Source of the DNA: Escherichia coli
GTDB lineage: Bacteria > Pseudomonadota > Gammaproteobacteria > Enterobacterales > Enterobacteriaceae
DNA: 64,000 nucleotides
Direction: 5' to 3' (one strand)
NCBI RefSeq assembly: GCF_002854065.1
Contig: NZ_CP024147.1
Both the position numbers and the translations under genes were made by a program. How positions within the stretch are numbered: the first letter of the stretch is position 1; every line of letters begins with the position of its first letter. This document shows positions 20,007 to 46,711 of this stretch, one piece after another. A model generated the notes under the pieces. That model worked only from the letters and a program-made list of their open reading frames with translations. It ran no database searches and was not told the DNA's origin.

Positions 20007-21754
20007 CATCCTCCACGCCCTGAATGACGAGGATCCCTGCTACGTTCAGGCTGTCGCCTGAATCATTTCGGTGGGTTCCTGCTTCAACGAGTGGCCTGAC
20101 TGCACCATCTCTCCACAGGCAAGAACGGCGTGCCCCGCCGCTAAAATGTTACGAGCGCCGTTTACATCGGCGTTCGCTGTATATCCACATACCTGGCATC
20201 TGAATTTACTTTGTGACAGGCGATTTTCTTTCGCTGTATGACCACAGCACGCGCAACGCTGGCTTGTGTACGCTGGCGGAACAGCAAGCACCTGACCGCC
20301 TCGCCAGAGCTGCTTGTACTCAAGCTGGCGGCGCATTTCATACCAGCCCTGATCCAGTATCGAACGGTTTAAACCTGATTTTGCCCGGACATTGCGCCCC
20401 GGCTGGCTGACCGTACCCGCTGCTGACTTTGACATGTTGCTGACCTTCAAATCCTCAATGACTATCATTGCGTGGTTTTTGCTGACGGTCGTTGTGACTT
20501 TGTGAAGGTAGTCTCTGCGGATATTTGCGGTACAGGAATGCAGTCGCTGTATTTTGCGTTTCTGCTTCTGCCAGTTATTGCTGAATTTGACCTTGCGGCT
20601 TAACTGTCGCTGAAGTCTCGCCAGCTTCTTCTGGTTTTTCTGAAAACTGTTTACAGGCTCAAAGACTGTGCCATCTGACAGCGTGGCGAGTTTAGCCACG
20701 CCAGCATCCAGTCCGACCATTGATGCTGAAGGGTGAACCGGAGTTGATACTTCACTTTCTGTCTGAATACTGATGTACCACTTACCGCAGGACTGGCTGA
20801 CAGTGACATTTTTCACAACACCCGTGACCTGACGGCTGTTCCGGTAGCGCATCCAGCCAAGTTTCGGCAGAAAAATACGGCTGTTTTCCTGATCGAGCTT
20901 AACGCCCTGCGGGTAGCGGAATGCATCATTCTGTCCCCGCTTTTTGAATCGGGGAAAAGCAGCCCGCTTCCGGAAGAAGTTTTTGTAAGCCCGCTCAAGG
21001 TCTTTCAGTGACTGTTGCAATGGCTGTGAGGGCGAATCTTTAAGCCATTGCGTTTCAGTGGCATTTTTCCACTCAACCAGCCAGGAAGCCATTTTCCCGT
21101 AAGGGATGTATTTATTACCGGCCTCATGATTCTCATTCTGACGTGCCAGAGCACGATTGAAAACGAAACGACATGCGCCTGCGAAGCGCCTCATTTCACG
21201 CTCCTGTTGACCAGCGGGTCTTAACTGGAATTTAAATGCCTGTAGTCGTTTCACAGGCCAAATGATACTTTGGTCTATGAATAAAGAAACCGATATCCGA
21301 CGGGGAAGGCATTGTGTTTTCCTGATGCATGTTCATCTGGTCTTTGTCACCAGATACCGACGTCAGATTTTTGACTATGACGCGACAGAAAAACTACGCA
21401 CTTACTTTTCAAATGTATGTGCTGATTTTGAAGCTGAACTGGTTGAAATGGATGGCGAACCAGATCACGTCCATTTGTTAATTAACTATCCTCCCAAACT
21501 GGCGATATCCAGTCTGGTAAACAGCCTCAAAGGCGTATCGGGTAGGTTACTGCGACGAGATCGACCAGATATTGCAGTCAGGTATTACTACAAAGGCGTT
21601 TTGTGGAGTCCTGGCTATTTTGCCAGTAGCTGCGGAGGTGCGCCAATATCCGTCATCCGCCAATACATTGAACAACAGCAAACACCTGGTCAGGTGGAAA
21701 ACCGCGCCTTATATCCCCGCCCTGAAGGACGGGGTTTTACGGCGCACCGGATAA
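20007..21754 (-). mobile_element. IS200/IS605-family insertion sequence (IS605-type divergent tnpA/tnpB; possibly IS609-like); boundaries approximate
   Basis: Divergent Y1/HUH tnpA and tnpB fill the yfeD-gltX gap; an 18-nt related motif (CGCCCTGAA-T/G-GACG-A/G-GG) occurs in the same orientation at both ends, as expected for IS200/IS605 subterminal hairpins; gltX terminator lies immediately outside. Confidence 0.7.
20046..21254 (-). CDS. tnpB: TnpB (OrfB) RuvC-like RNA-guided endonuclease family protein
   Basis: 402 aa, GTG start; RuvC-I GLDAGV, Ruv[11 protein letters not shown], zinc finger CACCGH...CQVCG, Ruv[14 protein letters not shown] all present. Confidence 0.85.
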
Positions 21755-21804
21755 ATAAAAAACGGCAGGGGTATCTCTCCTGCCGTTTATCTTTTATGCG
21801 CTAA
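21277..21804 (+). CDS. tnpA: IS200/IS605 TnpA (Y1 HUH transposase), C-terminally extended into flanking DNA
   Basis: HVHLVFVTRYRR (HUH motif) and catalytic-Tyr region VIRQYIEQQ; the ORF has no stop inside the element and reads through the gltX terminator to 21804. Confidence 0.7.
   Translation: MNKETDIRRGRHCVFLMHVHLVFVTRYRRQIFDYDATEKLRTYFSNVCADFEAELVEMDGEPDHVHLLINYPPKLAISSLVNSLKGVSGRLLRRDRPDIAVRYYYKGVLWSPGYFASSCGGAPISVIRQYIEQQQTPGQVENRALYPRPEGRGFTAHRINKKRQGYLSCRLSFMR
21755..21787 (-). terminator. gltX rho-independent terminator
   Basis: On minus strand AAACGGCAGG-AGAGATACC-CCTGCCGTTTTTT just downstream of the gltX stop. Confidence 0.7.
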
Positions 21805-23220
21805 TTACTGCTGATTTTCGCGTTCCGCAATAAAAGCCAGCGCTTTGTTGATACGCTCGATACTGCGGGTCTTACCGATTGCGTGAACGGTAACATCCAG
21901 TGCTGGAGACTGCCCCGCACCGGTTACGGCGACACGCAGCGGCATACCAACTTTACCCATACCCACTTCCAGCTCATCCGCCGTCGCCTGAATAGCGTGA
22001 TGAACGTTTTCAGCGGTCCAGTCAGTAATCGCGGCCAGTTTGTCACGAACCACTTCCAGCGGCTGACGCGCTACCGGACGCAGATGTTTTTTCGCCGCAT
22101 CGGCATCGAACTCAGCAAAATCTTCGTAGAAATAACGGCAGCTCTGTGCCATCTCTTTCAGCGTCTTGCAGCGTTCGCCCAGCAGTTTCACCAGATCAGC
22201 CAGCTGCGGGCCGTTACGGGTATCGATATTTTCCTGCTCAATGTGCCACTGTAAGTGAGTAGCAACATACTCCGGCGGCAGCGCGTTAATGTAGTGATGG
22301 TTCAGCCACAGCAGCTTGTCGGTGTTGAACGCACTGGCAGATTTGCTGACGGCATTCAAAGTGAAGTATTTGATCATCTCTTCACGAGTGAAGATTTCCT
22401 GATCGCCGTGGGACCAGCCCAGACGCACCAGATAGTTCAGCAGTGCTTCTGGCAAATAACCGTCATCACGATACTGCATTACGCTGACTGCCCCGTGACG
22501 TTTGGACAGTTTTTTGCCGTCATCGCCGTTGATCATAGAAACGTGCGCGTAAACCGGTACCGGCGCTTTCAGGGCTTTAAGAATATTGATCTGGCGTGGC
22601 GTGTTGTTGATATGGTCTTCGCCACGGATAACGTGGGTGATTTCCATATCCCAGTCATCGACAACCACACAGAAGTTATAGGTTGGGGAACCATCGGTAC
22701 GGCGGATAATAAGATCGTCCAGTTCCTGGTTGCTGAACTCGATCGGACCACGGATCTGATCGTCAAAAACAACAGAACCTTCCTGCGGGTTAGCAAAACG
22801 TACGACACACGGCTCATCATCAGCGTGATGCTCATGACTGTGGCGGCAGCGACCGTCATAACGCGGCTTCTCACCTTTCGCCATTTGCTCTTCGCGCAGC
22901 GCTTCCAGGCGCTCTTTAGAGCAATAGCATTTATAAGCAGTGCCCTCTTCCAGCATCTGATCGATCACCGCGTTGTAGCGATCAAAACGTTTGGTCTGGA
23001 AGTACGGACCTTCATCCCACTCCAGGCTCAGCCAGTTCATGCCATCCATAATGGCTTCGATAGCTTCCGGCGTGGAACGCTCAAGATCGGTGTCTTCAAT
23101 ACGCAGCACGAACTCACCGCCGTGATTACGTGCAAAAAGCCAGGAGTAAAGAGCAGTACGCGCGCCGCCAACGTGCAGATAGCCTGTTGGGCTTGGCGCG
23201 AAGCGAGTTTTGATTTTCAT
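21805..23220 (-). CDS. gltX: Glutamyl-tRNA synthetase
   Basis: 471 aa, [27 protein letters not shown] (HIGH-type motif) and KLSKR (KMSKS motif). Confidence 0.95.
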
Positions 23221-23478
23221 GAAATGGCCTTACGTTTAGAAAGATGCCGACAACCGGCAAATCCTGGAAAAATTGAGTGGGCGATATTCTATCACTCCCG
23301 CCTGATTCCTCAATGTAGTTCGGGTTGCAACCTTACGCATTATTGTTTTCGTTGACAAATTGCGCAACACGGTCTGTTTTGCGATCATCTTGCTTAAATT
23401 TACGACGAACGAACAATTTCTTTAGAAAATGCGTTGACTCATTTTGAACTCTCCCTATAATGCGACTCCACACAGCGG

Positions 23479-23554
23479 GGGTGATTAGCTCAGCTGGGAG
23501 AGCACCTCCCTTACAAGGAGGGGGTCGGCGGTTCGATCCCGTCATCACCCACCA
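23479..23554 (+). tRNA. valU: tRNA-Val (UAC)
   Basis: GGGTGATTAGCTCAGCTGGGAGAGCACCTCCCTTACAAGGAGGGGGTCGGCGGTTCGATCCCGTCATCACCCACCA. Confidence 0.95.
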
Positions 23555-23598
23555 ACTGCTTTATGTAGTCTCCGCCGTGTAGCAAGAAATTGAGAAGT

Positions 23599-23674
23599 GG
23601 GTGATTAGCTCAGCTGGGAGAGCACCTCCCTTACAAGGAGGGGGTCGGCGGTTCGATCCCGTCATCACCCACCA
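23599..23674 (+). tRNA. valX: tRNA-Val (UAC)
   Basis: Identical copy of valU. Confidence 0.95.
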
Positions 23675-23720
23675 CTTTCTCACCAGCTAAATTTCTTGTA
23701 AAAATGTGAAGTACCGAAGT

Positions 23721-23796
23721 GGGTGATTAGCTCAGCTGGGAGAGCACCTCCCTTACAAGGAGGGGGTCGGCGGTTCGATCCCGTCATCACCCACCA
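23721..23796 (+). tRNA. valY: tRNA-Val (UAC)
   Basis: Identical copy of valU. Confidence 0.95.
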
Positions 23797-23800
23797 CTTC

Positions 23801-23876
23801 GGGTCGTTAGCTCAGTTGGTAGAGCAGTTGACTTTTAATCAATTGGTCGCAGGTTCGAATCCTGCACGACCCACCA
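23801..23876 (+). tRNA. lysV: tRNA-Lys (UUU)
   Basis: GGGTCGTTAGCTCAGTTGGTAGAGCAGTTGACTTTTAATCAATTGGTCGCAGGTTCGAATCCTGCACGACCCACCA, 4 nt after valY. Confidence 0.95.
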
Positions 23877-23881
23877 ATGTA

Positions 23882-23907
23882 AAAAAGCGCCCTAAAGGCG
23901 CTTTTTT
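23882..23907 (+). terminator. Terminator of the val-lys tRNA operon
   Basis: GCGCC-CTAAA-GGCGC hairpin followed by TTTTTT. Confidence 0.8.
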
Positions 23908-23940
23908 GCTATCTGCGATTTGTATGATTGATTTTTCTTC

Positions 23941-23967
23941 TCAAGTTCCTTGTTCTTCTACCGATAT
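23941..23967 (+). promoter_or_regulatory. Candidate sigma28 (FliA) promoter for the FlxA-like gene
   Basis: TCAAGTTC-N11-ACCGATAT versus consensus TAAAGTTT-N11-GCCGATAA (6/8 and 6/8, correct spacing), 29 bp upstream of the ATG. Confidence 0.45.
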
Positions 23968-23995
23968 TACCTCGTACAGTGACGAGGACTGAACA

Positions 23996-24337
23996 ATGGC
24001 CACTATCTCTTCAACTTCAATTCCTTCCATACAAACACAGAGTAGTAACAGGGCATCACAAGGTAGCGATGTTGCTTCACAAATCGCGCGGATAAGTCAG
24101 CAAATCATCAAACTCACTCAACAAATTAAAGAGATTGTAGATACTAGCGGCAGTGCTGAAGACAAGCAAAAACAGGCCGAATTGATTCAACAGCAAATCA
24201 CCCTACTGGAAACACAACTGGCGCAGTTGCAGAGACAGCAGGCAGAAAAGGCGCAGGAGAAAGAGCAGCGTTTGTCTCTGAATGTATCCCTTCTAAATCC
24301 TGTTGAAAATACGACTCATATCGATATCTATATCTGA
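23996..24337 (+). CDS. FlxA-like coiled-coil protein
   Basis: 113 aa, Q-rich coiled coil, C-terminal THIDIYI resembling the FlxA family tail, N-terminal Ser/Thr-rich segment; convergent 10-nt overlap with yfeR. Confidence 0.6.
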
Positions 24338-25254
24338 TACAACGGATCCCCTTCCCGACCAGCCATTAGCGCATTGCCCTGGTCTCGTACCACGTCCCAT
24401 AACGCTTCAGCGGCGGTGGAAAGTGAACGGTTCTTCCTGCGCACCAGCATCAACTGGCGTTCAACAACCGGCGTAATGCGCTTTACCACCAGCGGGCTAC
24501 CTTCAGGCAATGGTAGCGCCAGTGCGGGAAGAATACTGATGCCGATGCCTGCGGCTACCATCGGGAACAGCGTCGCCGGATGTCCAATCTCCTGCACAAT
24601 ATTCGCCTGAATACCATTGCGCGCCAGCGCTGCGTCAATCAGCGGTCGGCTGCCTGACGCGTAATCCTGCAACACCAATTTCGCTCCCTGTAATGCCTGC
24701 CAGGGTACATAATCTTCCACGGTCAAAGCGCTATCGCGATGGCAAAGCAGAAAGAAAGGCTCGGAAAGAATCGCTTCACATTGCAGATCGCCCACTGGGC
24801 CTGGATCGATGACGATGCCAAAGTCGACATCTCCCTGGCGAATACTTTCCATCACCCACTGCTGCGGACGATCGTGCAGGACAAACTGAATATCTGGATA
24901 GCGGCGATGGCTTTCAGCAATGCATTGCGGAATAAGATGCGCGGAAATGGTCTGGCTGGCAGCGACCCGAACTTTTCCGCTCAGTTGTTGCCCCATACGC
25001 CCGGTATCGCGCAACGTGCTGTTAAGTTCATCCAGCAGTCGCTCAAGACGCAAAGCCAACTGCTGCCCTGCATCTGTAAGCACCACTTCACGCGTGGTTC
25101 TGTCCAGCAGGCGAACACCAGTATGATTTTCCAGCTCCTTCACACTGTGACTTACTGCCGACTGGCTCAGGCCGATACGCTCTCCTGCACGACTAAAACT
25201 TTTCTCCTGCGCTACTGTGACGAAAACCTTTAATTGTTTTAAAGAATAATTCAT
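24328..25254 (-). CDS. yfeR: LysR-family transcriptional regulator YfeR
   Basis: 308 aa, N-terminal LysR HTH ([23 protein letters not shown]). Confidence 0.85.
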
Positions 25255-43977: not shown

Positions 43978-45402
<1,425 letters not shown>

Positions 45403-45406
45403 TATT

Positions 45407-46711
45407 ATGAAACGGACAATGCTCTATCTTTCTCTGCTGGCTGTCAGCTATAGCGTCAGCGCCGCAAAATACCCTGTTCTGACAGAAAGTTCGCCAGAGA
45501 AAGCAGGGTTCAACGTCGAACGGCTTAACCAGATGGATCGCTGGATTAGCCAGCAAGTGGACGCCGGTTATCCCGGCGTAAACCTGCTGATTATAAAAGA
45601 TAATCAGATTGTGTATCGCAAAGCCTGGGGAGCGGCGAAAAAGTACGATGGCAGCGTATTGATGGAACAGCCTGTCAAAGCCACCACCGGGACGCTGTAT
45701 GACCTGGCTTCCAATACCAAGATGTACGCCACTAACTTTGCTCTGCAAAAGCTAATGAGCGAAGGCAAGCTGCATCCTGACGATCGGATTGCGAAATATA
45801 TTCCGGGATTTGCCGATAGTCCAAATGACACCATCAAAGGCAAAAACACGCTGCGGATTTCTGACCTGCTGCATCACAGCGGCGGTTTCCCGGCGGACCC
45901 ACAATATCCGAATAAAGCGGTCGCGGGCGCGTTATATTCCCAGGATAAAGGCCAAACGCTGGAGATGATCAAGCGCACGCCGCTAGAGTATCAGCCCGGC
46001 AGCAAGCATATTTACAGTGATGTCGATTATATGCTGCTTGGATTTATCGTCGAGTCGGTCACCGGTCAGCCGCTTGACCGCTATGTTGAAGAGTCGATTT
46101 ATCGCCCGCTCGGCCTGAAACATACGGTATTTAACCCGTTGCTGAAAGGCTTTAAACCGCAGCAAATTGCCGCCACGGAATTGAACGGCAATACCCGCGA
46201 TGGAGTGATCCACTTCCCGAATATCCGCACCTCCACTCTCTGGGGTCAGGTGCACGATGAAAAAGCCTTTTATTCGATGGGCGGCGTTTCCGGGCACGCA
46301 GGTTTGTTTTCCAATACCGGCGATATTGCGGTGTTAATGCAAACGATGCTGAACGGCGGGGGCTATGGCGATGTGCAGCTGTTCAGTGCGGAAACGGTGA
46401 AGATGTTCACCACCAGCTCTAAGGAAGATGCCACTTTTGGCCTCGGCTGGCGCGTGAATGGTAATGCCACCATGACGCCGACGTTTGGCACGCTGGCAAG
46501 CCCGCAAACCTACGGTCACACTGGCTGGACCGGAACGGTGACCGTTATCGATCCGGTGAATCATATGGCGATTGTGATGTTAAGCAACAAGCCACATTCG
46601 CCAGTTGCCGATCCGCAAAAGAATCCCAATATGTTCGAAAGCGGTCAGTTACCGATTGCAACTTATGGTTGGGTGGTTGATCAGGTATATGCGGCGTTAA
46701 AGCAGAAATAA
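45407..46711 (+). CDS. yfeW: Penicillin-binding protein 4B-like serine hydrolase YfeW
   Basis: 434 aa from ATG 45407 with signal peptide; beta-lactamase-fold SxxK motif (SNTK). Confidence 0.85.
   Translation: MKRTMLYLSLLAVSYSVSAAKYPVLTESSPEKAGFNVERLNQMDRWISQQVDAGYPGVNLLIIKDNQIVYRKAWGAAKKYDGSVLMEQPVKATTGTLYDLASNTKMYATNFALQKLMSEGKLHPDDRIAKYIPGFADSPNDTIKGKNTLRISDLLHHSGGFPADPQYPNKAVAGALYSQDKGQTLEMIKRTPLEYQPGSKHIYSDVDYMLLGFIVESVTGQPLDRYVEESIYRPLGLKHTVFNPLLKGFKPQQIAATELNGNTRDGVIHFPNIRTSTLWGQVHDEKAFYSMGGVSGHAGLFSNTGDIAVLMQTMLNGGGYGDVQLFSAETVKMFTTSSKEDATFGLGWRVNGNATMTPTFGTLASPQTYGHTGWTGTVTVIDPVNHMAIVMLSNKPHSPVADPQKNPNMFESGQLPIATYGWVVDQVYAALKQK

What the first reader, a model, noticed from the sequence alone, without database searches (positions are those of the whole stretch)
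23941..23995. Candidate sigma28 promoter and RBS-occluding hairpin in the FlxA-like leader
TCAAGTTC-N11-ACCGATAT matches the FliA consensus at 6/8 and 6/8 positions with correct spacing, consistent with the known FliA dependence of K-12 flxA. Just downstream, CCTCGT-ACAGTG-ACGAGG (23970-23987) forms a 6-bp stem whose 3' arm overlaps the GAGGA ribosome-binding site, hinting at translational control.
Basis: inference. Interest (0 to 1): 0.35.

Follow-up and report, generated by a model that had tools for sequence, protein, structure and literature searches.

The report
Predicted FliA promoter of FlxA-like gene

Summary
The window is E. coli with a non-K-12 arrangement: gltX, valU-valX-valY-lysV, a 113-aa FlxA-like gene, yfeR. 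Both features are at the stated coordinates.

**Promoter.** A matrix built from 52 ChIP-seq FliA sites scores the site 16.4-19 bits, rank 1-2 of 127,946 positions. In 22 related syntenic loci (protein identity down to about 35%) the same site is the best hit in the locus, 54-65 nt before the ATG, and TCAAG and CCGATA stay nearly invariant while the flanks diverge. I conclude it is a sigma-28 promoter. This is not experimentally shown.

**Hairpin.** The stem is real (-8.6 kcal/mol) but common: 3-4% of positions have one. Mapped sigma-28 starts lie 6-9 nt after the -10 octamer. That predicts +1 at 23974-23976, inside or after the 5' arm (23970-23975). The sigma-28 mRNA would therefore lack the stem.

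**Remaining role.** The stem could only silence RNA reading through the lysV terminator, as in phage T4 gene e. Lineage-specific complementarity (p about 0.004) gives this weak support.

**Verdict.** A new member of a known kind; modest interest.

The parts
23479..23876 (+). valU-valX-valY-lysV tRNA operon (3 tRNA-Val UAC, 1 tRNA-Lys UUU). It is co-directional with and immediately upstream of the FlxA-like gene. Its sigma-70-type promoter is at 23434-23461.
   Evidence: ARAGORN; Rfam tRNA hits; promoter TTGACT-16-TATAAT, 11 of 12 matches; RefSeq annotation of identical loci.
23879..23909 (+). lysV intrinsic terminator: A-tract, GCGCC-CUAAA-GGCGC stem, then a U-tract.
   Evidence: Fold of 23877-23915 gives -19.1 kcal/mol with z = -7.0. 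It is conserved in the related loci. The simple terminator scan did not report it.
23941..23948 (+). Sigma-28 -35 element TCAAGTTC.
   Evidence: 6 of 8 matches to TAAAGTTT. T1, A3 are invariant and C2, A4, G5 nearly invariant across 19 ortholog site sequences. flgKL, modABC and fliL, all FliA-bound in K-12, also begin with TCAA.
23949..23959 (+). 11-nt spacer, pyrimidine-rich, variable between species.
23960..23967 (+). Sigma-28 -10 element ACCGATAT. The core CCGATA is invariant in all orthologs. The first base is A in this window and in the one B-strain derivative examined, and G in O157:H7 and in every other species sampled.
   Evidence: ycgR and fliD, both FliA-bound in K-12, also have ACCGATAA.
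23974..23976 (+). Predicted sigma-28 transcription start: G23974 (7th nt after the octamer) or A23976 (9th). This gives a 5' UTR of 22 or 20 nt.
   Evidence: Inference from mapped starts of known promoters. flgM is at the 8th nt, flgK the 9th and ycgR the 8th (EDL933 Cappable-seq). tar, motA, fliC, tsr and fliA are at the 7th to 9th. aer is at the 6th and P. aeruginosa fliC at the 8th. Not measured for this gene.
23970..23987 (+). Inverted repeat CCTCGT / ACAGTG / ACGAGG. The 5' arm is 23970-23975 and the 3' arm is 23982-23987.
   Evidence: -8.6 kcal/mol hairpin in RNA that spans it. Invariant in the E. coli genomes sampled. The 5' arm occupies nt 3-8 after the -10 octamer, which is upstream of or at the predicted +1.
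23984..23988 (+). Shine-Dalgarno sequence GAGGA, 7 nt before the start codon.
   Evidence: The AGG core is invariant in the 10-sequence alignment.
23996..24337 (+). FlxA-like gene, 113 aa. It is ECs_3279 in O157:H7 Sakai and EDL933_RS17500 in EDL933. Its 3' end overlaps the convergent yfeR (24328-25254, minus strand) by 10 nt.
   Evidence: ORF list; Pfam PF14282 at E=7e-14; RefSeq annotation; 43% identity to K-12 FlxA over 74 aa.

Best explanation
**What it is.** 23941-23967 is a sigma-28 (FliA) class-3-type promoter that drives the FlxA-like gene at 23996-24337.

**How it works (inferred).**
- RNA polymerase carrying FliA recognises TCAAGTTC-N11-ACCGATAT.
- It starts transcription at about G23974 or A23976.
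- The resulting mRNA has a 20-22 nt, largely open leader with the GAGGA ribosome-binding site.
- The gene would then be expressed with the late flagellar regulon, as its K-12 paralogue flxA is.

**The inverted repeat.** The repeat at 23970-23987 straddles the start point. Its 5' arm is promoter DNA (about -6 to -1) and is not part of this mRNA. It therefore does not control translation of the FliA-dependent transcript.

**Status of each step.** Shown: the sequence, the matrix score and the conservation. Inferred: FliA dependence and the position of +1.
For: **Matrix score.** A matrix built from the 52 ChIP-seq FliA sites of K-12 (Table 2 of PMC4183435) scores the site 16.4-19.0 bits.
- This is rank 1-2 of 127,946 window positions.
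- It lies in the middle of the range of real sites: 11 of 25 strong sites score higher.
- About 0.06 sites of this score are expected per window in random sequence.

**Conservation.** In the window and in every one of 22 related syntenic loci, this site is the top hit on both strands.
- The loci come from E. coli Sakai, Pseudocitrobacter, Kluyvera, Pluralibacter and unnamed metagenome or assembly contigs, with protein identity down to about 35%.
- The site always lies 54-65 nt before the ATG and scores 12.0-20.6 bits.
- T1, A3, T19 and CCGATA are invariant in 19 ortholog sites, while the spacer and everything upstream of the -35 diverge.

**Precedents.**
- An A at -10 position 1 also occurs in the strongly bound ycgR and fliD promoters.
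- K-12 flxA is FliA-bound and falls from 280 to 2 in a fliA deletion.

**No competing promoter.** No sigma-70-like promoter was found between the lysV terminator and the ATG.

**Start-site geometry.**
Against: - No transcript, ChIP or reporter data for this gene could be retrieved. The stored supplements of the EDL933 Cappable-seq paper are cut before this locus.
- A high matrix score is not sufficient. The other top window hit (45793, inside pbp4B/yfeW) has identical -35 and -10 elements in K-12, yet it is not among the 52 in-vivo FliA sites.
- The window allele carries A instead of the consensus G at the first -10 position. About half of the E. coli carriers have 1-2 differences in this 58-nt stretch, and all three such genomes examined carry G at that position. 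The window allele may therefore be weaker.
- The +1 position is extrapolated from other promoters.
Confidence: 0.72

Rival explanations
1. **Promoter-selective translational gate (fold-back insulation).** RNA that reads through the lysV terminator from the strong tRNA operon carries both arms. It folds and hides the SD, so it is not translated. Sigma-28-initiated RNA starts inside or after the 5' arm and is open. The protein would then be made only when FliA is active. This accepts the promoter and assigns the hairpin a role on a different transcript.
For: **Geometry.** The 5' arm is nt 3-8 after the -10 octamer, and mapped sigma-28 starts are at nt 6-9.

**Predicted accessibility.** The cost of opening the RBS is 9.4-10.0 kcal/mol in long RNA and 4.2-4.4 kcal/mol in RNA starting at nt 6-9.

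**Context.** A co-directional tRNA operon sits directly upstream wherever the upstream flank was examined, and the later contigs with upstream sequence carry gltX upstream.

**Co-variation.**
- The first 9-11 nt after the octamer pair better with their own RBS segment than with those of other lineages. For 13 lineage representatives the mean is -4.72 against -3.20 kcal/mol, permutation p=0.004.
- The signal is confined to nt 1-9 (p=0.011). It is absent for nt 8 onward (p=0.62).
- The stems differ in sequence between lineages: CCTCGT/ACGAGG, CCTTAT/ATAAGG, CTGAG/CTCAG.

**Known precedent.** The same architecture operates in T4 genes e, soc, 49 and I-TevI (PMC3014915).
Against: - The lysV terminator is strong (-19.1 kcal/mol, z = -7), so there may be little read-through to silence.
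- The complementarity signal comes from only 4 of 13 lineages. In Kluyvera the stem is marginal (-3.2 kcal/mol) and is not the minimum-energy fold in the two identical Kluyvera leaders L005 and L006. In K. cryocrescens, Pluralibacter and others the structures differ or are absent.
- Stems of this kind are common by chance.
- Several window definitions were tried, so p about 0.004-0.02 is only suggestive.
Confidence: 0.2
2. **The first reader's model.** The hairpin lies in the 5' UTR of the FliA-dependent mRNA and occludes the RBS, giving translational control of that mRNA.
For: The stem exists, it is stable in isolation (-8.6 kcal/mol), and its 3' arm covers 4 of the 5 bases of GAGGA.
Against: For both arms to be transcribed, +1 would have to be at or before the 3rd nt after the -10 octamer.
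- All eleven mapped sigma-28 promoters examined start at the 6th to 9th nt.
- RNA starting there retains at most 3 nt of the 5' arm (2 nt or none at the two purines I favour as +1) and cannot form the stem. Its predicted fold is only -4.6 kcal/mol, with the SD in a loop.
- The K-12 flxA leader has no such stem.
Confidence: 0.04
3. **Chance match.** The motif does not function as a promoter, and the gene is silent or transcribed from elsewhere.
For: The 6/8 + 6/8 criterion is not above chance. A comparably scoring site in pbp4B is not FliA-bound in K-12.
Against: Chance cannot explain near-invariant -35 and -10 cores at a fixed distance from the ATG in 22 diverged loci whose flanks are otherwise unalignable.
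Confidence: 0.06
4. **Operator.** The inverted repeat is a DNA operator for a dimeric regulator that overlaps the transcription start.
For: It is a perfect 6-N6-6 palindrome-like repeat centred near +1. A LysR-type regulator gene (yfeR) lies next door.
Against: Arm spacing and sequence change between genera (N6 in E. coli, N10 in Kluyvera). That fits a hairpin better than a fixed operator. No motif or binding data exist. yfeR is convergent, not divergent, and it is a pseudogene in O157:H7, where the repeat is intact.
Confidence: 0.03

Closest known systems
[quoted passage not shown]
   Same: - It drives a PF14282 FlxA-family gene of about 110 aa.
- It has a sigma-28 -35/-10 pair with an 11-nt spacer and a short leader (-10 octamer to ATG: 23 nt there, 28 nt here).
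- It is FliA-bound, and expression falls from 280 to 2 in a fliA deletion.
   Different: - The proteins are only 43% identical over 74 aa.
- The promoter sequence differs (TAAAGATT...GCCGATAG there).
- The location differs: a prophage there, the conserved chromosomal lysV-yfeR slot here.
- The K-12 leader has no inverted repeat.
- K-12 lacks the present gene entirely, so K-12 regulon maps could not have detected it.
modABC and flgKL FliA promoters of E. coli K-12
   Same: They share the TCAA-type -35 and the GATAT/GATAA -10. The modABC 28-mer TCAACTTCCTGCTTTTCCTGCCGATATT is identical to the window site at 22 of 28 positions (my count from the table). The flgKL site TCAAGTCC...GCCGATAA shares TCAAGT. 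Both are ChIP-bound, with FAT scores of 32 and 47.
   Different: They serve different genes. Their FliA dependence is only partial (modA 182 to 61, flgK 318 to 138), because other promoters contribute there.
Phage T4 genes e, soc, 49 and I-TevI: a late promoter embedded in the 5' strand of an RBS-sequestering structure
   Same: The architecture matches. An alternative-sigma promoter lies so that its transcripts lack the 5' strand of a stem that hides the SD or AUG, while longer upstream-initiated transcripts carry both strands and are poorly translated (PMC3014915).
   Different: In T4 the effect is demonstrated, with about 100-fold less lysozyme from long transcripts. Here nothing has been measured, the stem is only 6 bp, a strong terminator already blocks most upstream transcription, and the sigma factor is host FliA rather than gp55.
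IS10/IS50 fold-back inhibition, and the IS200 left end (terminator plus SD-sequestering stem-loop)
   Same: These elements protect a gene from impinging outside transcription. They combine a terminator with an inverted repeat that hides the RBS. IS200 is documented in PMC4513863. IS10 and IS50 are from my own knowledge (Davis, Simons and Kleckner 1985; Krebs and Reznikoff 1986) and were not checked here.
   Different: They are mobile elements, not a chromosomal regulon member. In IS200 the stem lies inside the native mRNA.

Membership tests
Sigma-28 (FliA) dependent promoter | -35 TAAAGTTT-like and -10 GCCGATAA-like octamers separated by 11 nt, scoring within the range of experimentally bound sites | tested here: met
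   16.4-19.0 bits with matrices from ChIP-seq sites, rank 1-2 of 127,946 positions, mid-range of real sites.
Sigma-28 (FliA) dependent promoter | Intact CGA core of the -10 element, which is essential in aer, flgM and tar | tested here: met
   ACCGATAT contains CGA. CCGATA is invariant in 19 ortholog sites. The importance of the core is documented.
Sigma-28 (FliA) dependent promoter | Correct orientation and a short distance to a gene start, conserved in orthologs | tested here: met
   The site starts 55 nt before the ATG here and 54-65 nt before it in 22 related syntenic loci. It is the top hit in each locus.
Sigma-28 (FliA) dependent promoter | FliA-dependent transcription or FliA binding in vivo or in vitro | not testable with these tools
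   No data were retrievable. K-12 lacks the locus, and the EDL933 supplements are cut before it.
Sigma-28 (FliA) dependent promoter | Primary 5' end 6-9 nt downstream of the -10 octamer | not testable with these tools
   Predicted at 23974-23976 from eleven mapped promoters. Not measured for this gene.
RBS-sequestering 5' UTR hairpin (translational control of the sigma-28 mRNA) | Inverted repeat whose 3' arm covers the Shine-Dalgarno sequence | tested here: met
   CCTCGT-N6-ACGAGG overlaps GAGGA; -8.6 kcal/mol.
RBS-sequestering 5' UTR hairpin (translational control of the sigma-28 mRNA) | Both arms lie within the regulated transcript | tested here: not met
   The 5' arm is nt 3-8 after the -10 octamer, and mapped sigma-28 starts are at nt 6-9. 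This rests on a predicted, not a measured, +1.
RBS-sequestering 5' UTR hairpin (translational control of the sigma-28 mRNA) | Structure more stable or more frequent than chance | tested here: not met
   The base rate is 2.9-4.3% of positions. The leader fold has z = -0.19.
RBS-sequestering 5' UTR hairpin (translational control of the sigma-28 mRNA) | Conservation or compensatory change of the stem in orthologs | tested here: inconclusive
   The stem is kept in Pseudocitrobacter with G-U changes. Kluyvera has CCTTAT/ATAAGG, which is two compensatory pairs but only -3.2 kcal/mol. It is absent or different in other lineages. The cognate versus non-cognate pairing test gives p=0.004.
Promoter-inside-hairpin gate (T4 gene e type; IS10/IS50 fold-back type) | The gene's own promoter is placed so that native transcripts lack the 5' strand of the inhibitory stem | tested here: met
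   Met by geometry and a predicted +1. The difference in RBS opening energy is about 5 kcal/mol.
Promoter-inside-hairpin gate (T4 gene e type; IS10/IS50 fold-back type) | Co-directional upstream transcription that reaches the gene | tested here: inconclusive
   The tRNA operon is directly upstream, but a strong terminator lies between them. Read-through was not measured.
Promoter-inside-hairpin gate (T4 gene e type; IS10/IS50 fold-back type) | Long transcripts are translated less than short ones | not testable with these tools
   This needs reporter fusions.
FlxA family (Pfam PF14282), for the downstream ORF | Significant match to the family profile above the curated cut-off | tested here: met
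   52.2 bits against a cut-off of 26.3, E=7e-14. RefSeq names it a FlxA-like family protein.

The most novel reading that the evidence does not exclude
The inverted repeat and the sigma-28 promoter may together form a promoter-selective translational gate on a chromosomal gene.
- Transcripts leaking through the lysV terminator from the very active tRNA operon carry both arms and are translationally silent.
- FliA-initiated transcripts begin inside the 5' arm and are open.
- FlxA-like protein would then be made strictly with late flagellar genes.

This would be a host-chromosome, alternative-sigma counterpart of the T4 gene e / soc / I-TevI arrangement. Different stem sequences in several enterobacterial lineages would suggest it is maintained independently.
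Probability: 0.2. Interest if true: 0.5.

Novelty: new member of a known kind. Interest (0 to 1): 0.3.

Why it matters
**A likely unmapped regulon member.** If the promoter is functional, the late flagellar (FliA) regulon of many non-K-12 E. coli contains a conserved chromosomal member that K-12-based regulon maps could not see.
- The gene was found in 1316 of 5426 complete E. coli genomes, including O157:H7, O145, B-strain and W-derived strains.
- K-12 carries xapR-xapB-xapA-yfeN in its place.
- Both known FlxA-family loci in E. coli would then be FliA-controlled, which points to a still unknown flagellum-linked role for this small protein family.

**A general caution.** When a hairpin is called next to a promoter, the transcript start decides whether the hairpin exists in the RNA at all.

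**The speculative reading.** If confirmed, the gate model would be a tidy example of a cell using start-site position to restrict translation to one sigma factor's transcripts.

Tried and rejected
**Literature.**
- Searches for 'FlxA-like' and ECs3279 found nothing relevant in the main text of any held paper. The Z-number terms returned only noise.
- The 'flxA' + O157 search gave nothing relevant.
- The paper on seven LysR-type regulators only lists K-12 flxA among flagellar co-regulated genes.

**EDL933 Cappable-seq paper (PMC10469882).**
- The stored supplementary tables are cut before 3.34 Mb. No entry was found for gene 17500 or for coordinates beginning 33368.
- The comparison sheet did supply start sites for known FliA promoters.
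- The Sakai dRNA-seq paper has no stored supplements.

**Database searches.**
- The word-index protein search returned only 8 close relatives. The exhaustive search was needed.
- tblastn against the phage collection gave no match.
- Rfam has no family on the leader.

**Other checks.**
- The simple terminator scan missed the obvious lysV terminator, so I folded it directly.
- A sigma-70 promoter between terminator and ATG: none passed the scan. TATGAT at 23923-23928 has no usable -35 (by eye) and is TAAGAT in the other E. coli examined.
- An attenuator or terminator role for the hairpin was rejected because no U-tract follows it.
- An alternative CAGU/ACUG stem that would display the SD in a loop in the short transcript is not conserved in Pseudocitrobacter, so I gave it no weight.

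Full report
**Context.** The window is E. coli.
- Around the finding lie gltX (minus strand, 21805-23220), the valU-valX-valY-lysV tRNA operon (23479-23876) and a strong terminator hairpin (23879-23909, -19.1 kcal/mol, z = -7).
- Next comes a 113-aa ORF (23996-24337) that matches Pfam FlxA PF14282 (E=7e-14).
- It is followed by the convergent LysR-type gene yfeR and by yfeH.
- This arrangement occurs in 1316 of 5426 complete E. coli genomes, including O157:H7 (ECs_3279 in Sakai, EDL933_RS17500), O145, B-strain and W-derived strains.
- K-12 has no such gene. Homology with the window stops 46 nt after lysV, and xapR-xapB-xapA-yfeN fill the gap before yfeR.
- The gene is therefore a paralogue of K-12 flxA from prophage Qin (43% identity over 74 aa), not its orthologue.

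**Observation check.**
- TCAAGTTC (23941-23948), an 11-nt spacer and ACCGATAT (23960-23967) each match the consensus at 6 of 8 positions.
- CCTCGT / ACAGTG / ACGAGG (23970-23987) has its 3' arm overlapping GAGGA, 7 nt before the ATG.
There are 4 such N11 matches in the window, against 2.36 +/- 1.45 in shuffles.
- The hairpin is also unremarkable on its own. A perfect 6-bp stem with a 3-10 nt loop over an RBS zone is found at 2.9% of all positions, and at 4.3% of positions with an SD-like motif.
- The 117-nt leader folds no better than its shuffles (z = -0.19).

**The promoter holds up under better tests.**
- I built weight matrices from the 52 FliA ChIP-seq sites of K-12 (Table 2 of PMC4183435).
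- The site scores 16.4-19.0 bits, ranks 1-2 of 127,946 window positions and sits mid-range among real sites.
- With the spacer columns neutralised it is rank 1. About 0.06 sites of this score are expected per window in random sequence.
- Its unusual features have precedents among strongly bound promoters. The TCAA-type -35 occurs in flgKL, modABC and fliL, and an A at the first -10 position occurs in ycgR and fliD.

**Comparative evidence is stronger still.**
- I collected 22 related loci. Nine came from a genome scan. Eleven came from contigs encoding distant family members found by an exhaustive protein search. One came from a word-index hit, and one is O157:H7 Sakai.
- All share the local gene order. 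The loci with enough flank carry the tRNA operon or gltX upstream and yfeR or a LysR-type gene downstream. Protein identity falls as low as about 35%.
- In every one, the best matrix hit in the whole locus on either strand is the site 54-65 nt before the FlxA-like ATG, at 12.0-20.6 bits.
- T1, A3, T19 and CCGATA are invariant in 19 ortholog sites. The spacer and all sequence upstream of the -35 are unalignable.
- The one non-syntenic family member examined (two contigs, L029 and L030) has no such site (4.1 bits).

**Variation within E. coli.**
- 602 of 1313 carrier genomes are identical to the window over 23941-23998.
- The other 711 differ at 1-2 positions.
- In the three such genomes examined, the differences are confined to the last spacer base and the first -10 base, giving the consensus G. 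The hairpin is invariant.

**Where the transcript starts.** Mapped starts of known sigma-28 promoters, counted from the last base of the -10 octamer, are as follows.

| Promoter | Start (nt after octamer) | Source |
|---|---|---|
| aer | 6th | primer extension |
| tar | 8th | cryo-EM scaffold numbering |
| P. aeruginosa fliC | 8th | |
| flgM, flgK, ycgR | 8th, 9th, 8th | EDL933 Cappable-seq coordinates plus the EDL933 sequence |
| tar, motA/MotR, fliC, tsr, fliA | 7th in K-12; 8th-9th in EHEC (tsr 7th in both) | |
| fliD | 8th in EHEC | my arithmetic |

- Applied here, +1 falls at 23973-23976. The purines G23974 and A23976 are the likely starts, giving a 20-22 nt leader.
- The 5' arm of the hairpin (23970-23975) occupies nt 3-8 after the octamer. 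It is essentially promoter DNA.
- RNA beginning at 23974 cannot form the stem. Its predicted fold is only -4.6 kcal/mol, weaker than the shuffle mean (z = +1.05), with the SD in a loop.

**Does the inverted repeat do anything?**
- In RNA that spans it, the stem is stable in E. coli (-8.6 kcal/mol) and in Pseudocitrobacter (-5.9 and -6.7 kcal/mol, with G-U substitutions).
- In four Kluyvera species the corresponding arms read CCTTAT / ATAAGG. That is two compensatory pairs, but the loop is 10 nt and the stem only -3.2 kcal/mol. It is not the minimum-energy fold in the two identical Kluyvera leaders L005 and L006.
- Other lineages show different structures or none.
- I ran a cross-lineage permutation test. 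It asked whether the first 11 nt after the octamer pair better with their own RBS segment than with those of other lineages.
  - It gave -4.72 against -3.20 kcal/mol, p=0.004, for 13 lineage representatives.
  - The signal is confined to nt 1-9 (p=0.011) and absent from nt 8 onward (p=0.62).
  - It is carried by only 4 of the 13 lineages, and I tried several window definitions. I rate it as suggestive only.
- The only role compatible with the geometry is on longer RNA that reads through the lysV terminator.
  - The predicted cost of opening the RBS is 9.4-10.0 kcal/mol in such RNA, against 4.2-4.4 kcal/mol in sigma-28-initiated RNA.
  - This is the architecture documented for T4 genes e, soc, 49 and I-TevI. 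There, late promoters lie in the DNA encoding the 5' strand of an inhibitory stem, and long early transcripts are poorly translated (PMC3014915).
  - It also resembles transposon defences against impinging transcription. IS200 is documented. IS10 and IS50 are from my own knowledge.
  - Against it, the terminator is strong, so there may be little read-through to silence.

**Cautions.**
- No expression, ChIP or start-site data for this gene could be retrieved.
- Matrix score alone is fallible. The second-best window hit (45793, inside pbp4B/yfeW) has identical -35 and -10 elements in K-12, yet it is not among the in-vivo FliA sites.
- That site lacks both a good -35 and the cross-species conservation that supports the present one.

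**Verdict.**
- The sigma-28 promoter is very probably real. It is a new member of a well-known class, placed in front of a second FlxA-family gene that K-12-based regulon maps could not include.
- The hairpin is a real inverted repeat, but it is not a regulator of the FliA-dependent mRNA.
- A gate against read-through transcripts is possible (about 0.2) and would be moderately interesting.
- Overall interest is modest.

Noticed in passing
window 45793-45820 (+), inside the pbp4B/yfeW ORF (45320-46711 as listed): This is the second-best FliA matrix hit in the window (GAAATATATTCCGGGATTTGCCGATAGT, 16-18.5 bits). It lies intragenic and in the sense orientation. K-12 has the same site with one spacer mismatch, yet it is not among the 52 FliA ChIP-seq sites. 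This shows that a perfect -10 with a poor -35 is not sufficient.
   Followed up: partly
window ~23877-23922; locus L014 244-369; K-12 locus L032 2830-3031: Many E. coli, including K-12 and about half of the carriers, have an insertion of about 156 bp after lysV. RefSeq annotates it as an 'RtT sRNA'-like repeat. It duplicates the lysV 3' end and terminator, so those strains have two terminators before the FlxA-like promoter. The window has a single copy.
   Followed up: partly
window ~23922 (breakpoint) to 24337: The presence or absence polymorphism is sharp. K-12-type genomes replace the promoter and FlxA-like gene with xapR-xapB-xapA-yfeN. Homology ends 46 nt after lysV. In the related loci with enough flank, the gltX / tRNA / FlxA-like / yfeR / yfeH order holds, which suggests the FlxA-like arrangement is ancestral.
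   Followed up: partly
window 21262-21804 (+) and upstream, between yfeD and gltX: An IS200/IS605-family element (IS609 in Sakai) lies here. It has a TnpA-like ORF and, in the identical loci, an InsQ/TnpB-family RNA-guided endonuclease gene. K-12 has no element at this position.
   Followed up: no
window 24328-24337: The FlxA-like gene and the convergent yfeR overlap by 10 nt at their 3' ends. No terminator is evident between them. yfeR is a pseudogene with an internal stop in O157:H7 Sakai and EDL933.
   Followed up: no
locus L015 (E. coli HH45) 971-2360: One genome has a degenerate, rearranged copy of the locus. It has extra repeats, a promoter and hairpin carrying indels, and a frameshifted FlxA-like pseudogene. 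This may be real decay or a low-quality assembly.
   Followed up: no
window 23948-23955 and 23991-23999: In long (read-through) RNA the predicted fold also pairs CCUUGUUC, from the -35/spacer region, with GAACAAUGG, which includes the start codon. This stacks outside the SD hairpin. It was not tested for conservation.
   Followed up: no
FlxA-like protein (window 23996-24334) and its relatives: The protein evolves fast: syntenic orthologs are only 35-58% identical. It has a Ser/Thr/Gln-rich N-terminus, a central helical Gln-rich segment and a conserved IDIY(I/V) C-terminus shared with K-12 FlxA. Its function is unknown. Only 80 cluster representatives were found among 1.84 billion proteins.
   Followed up: no
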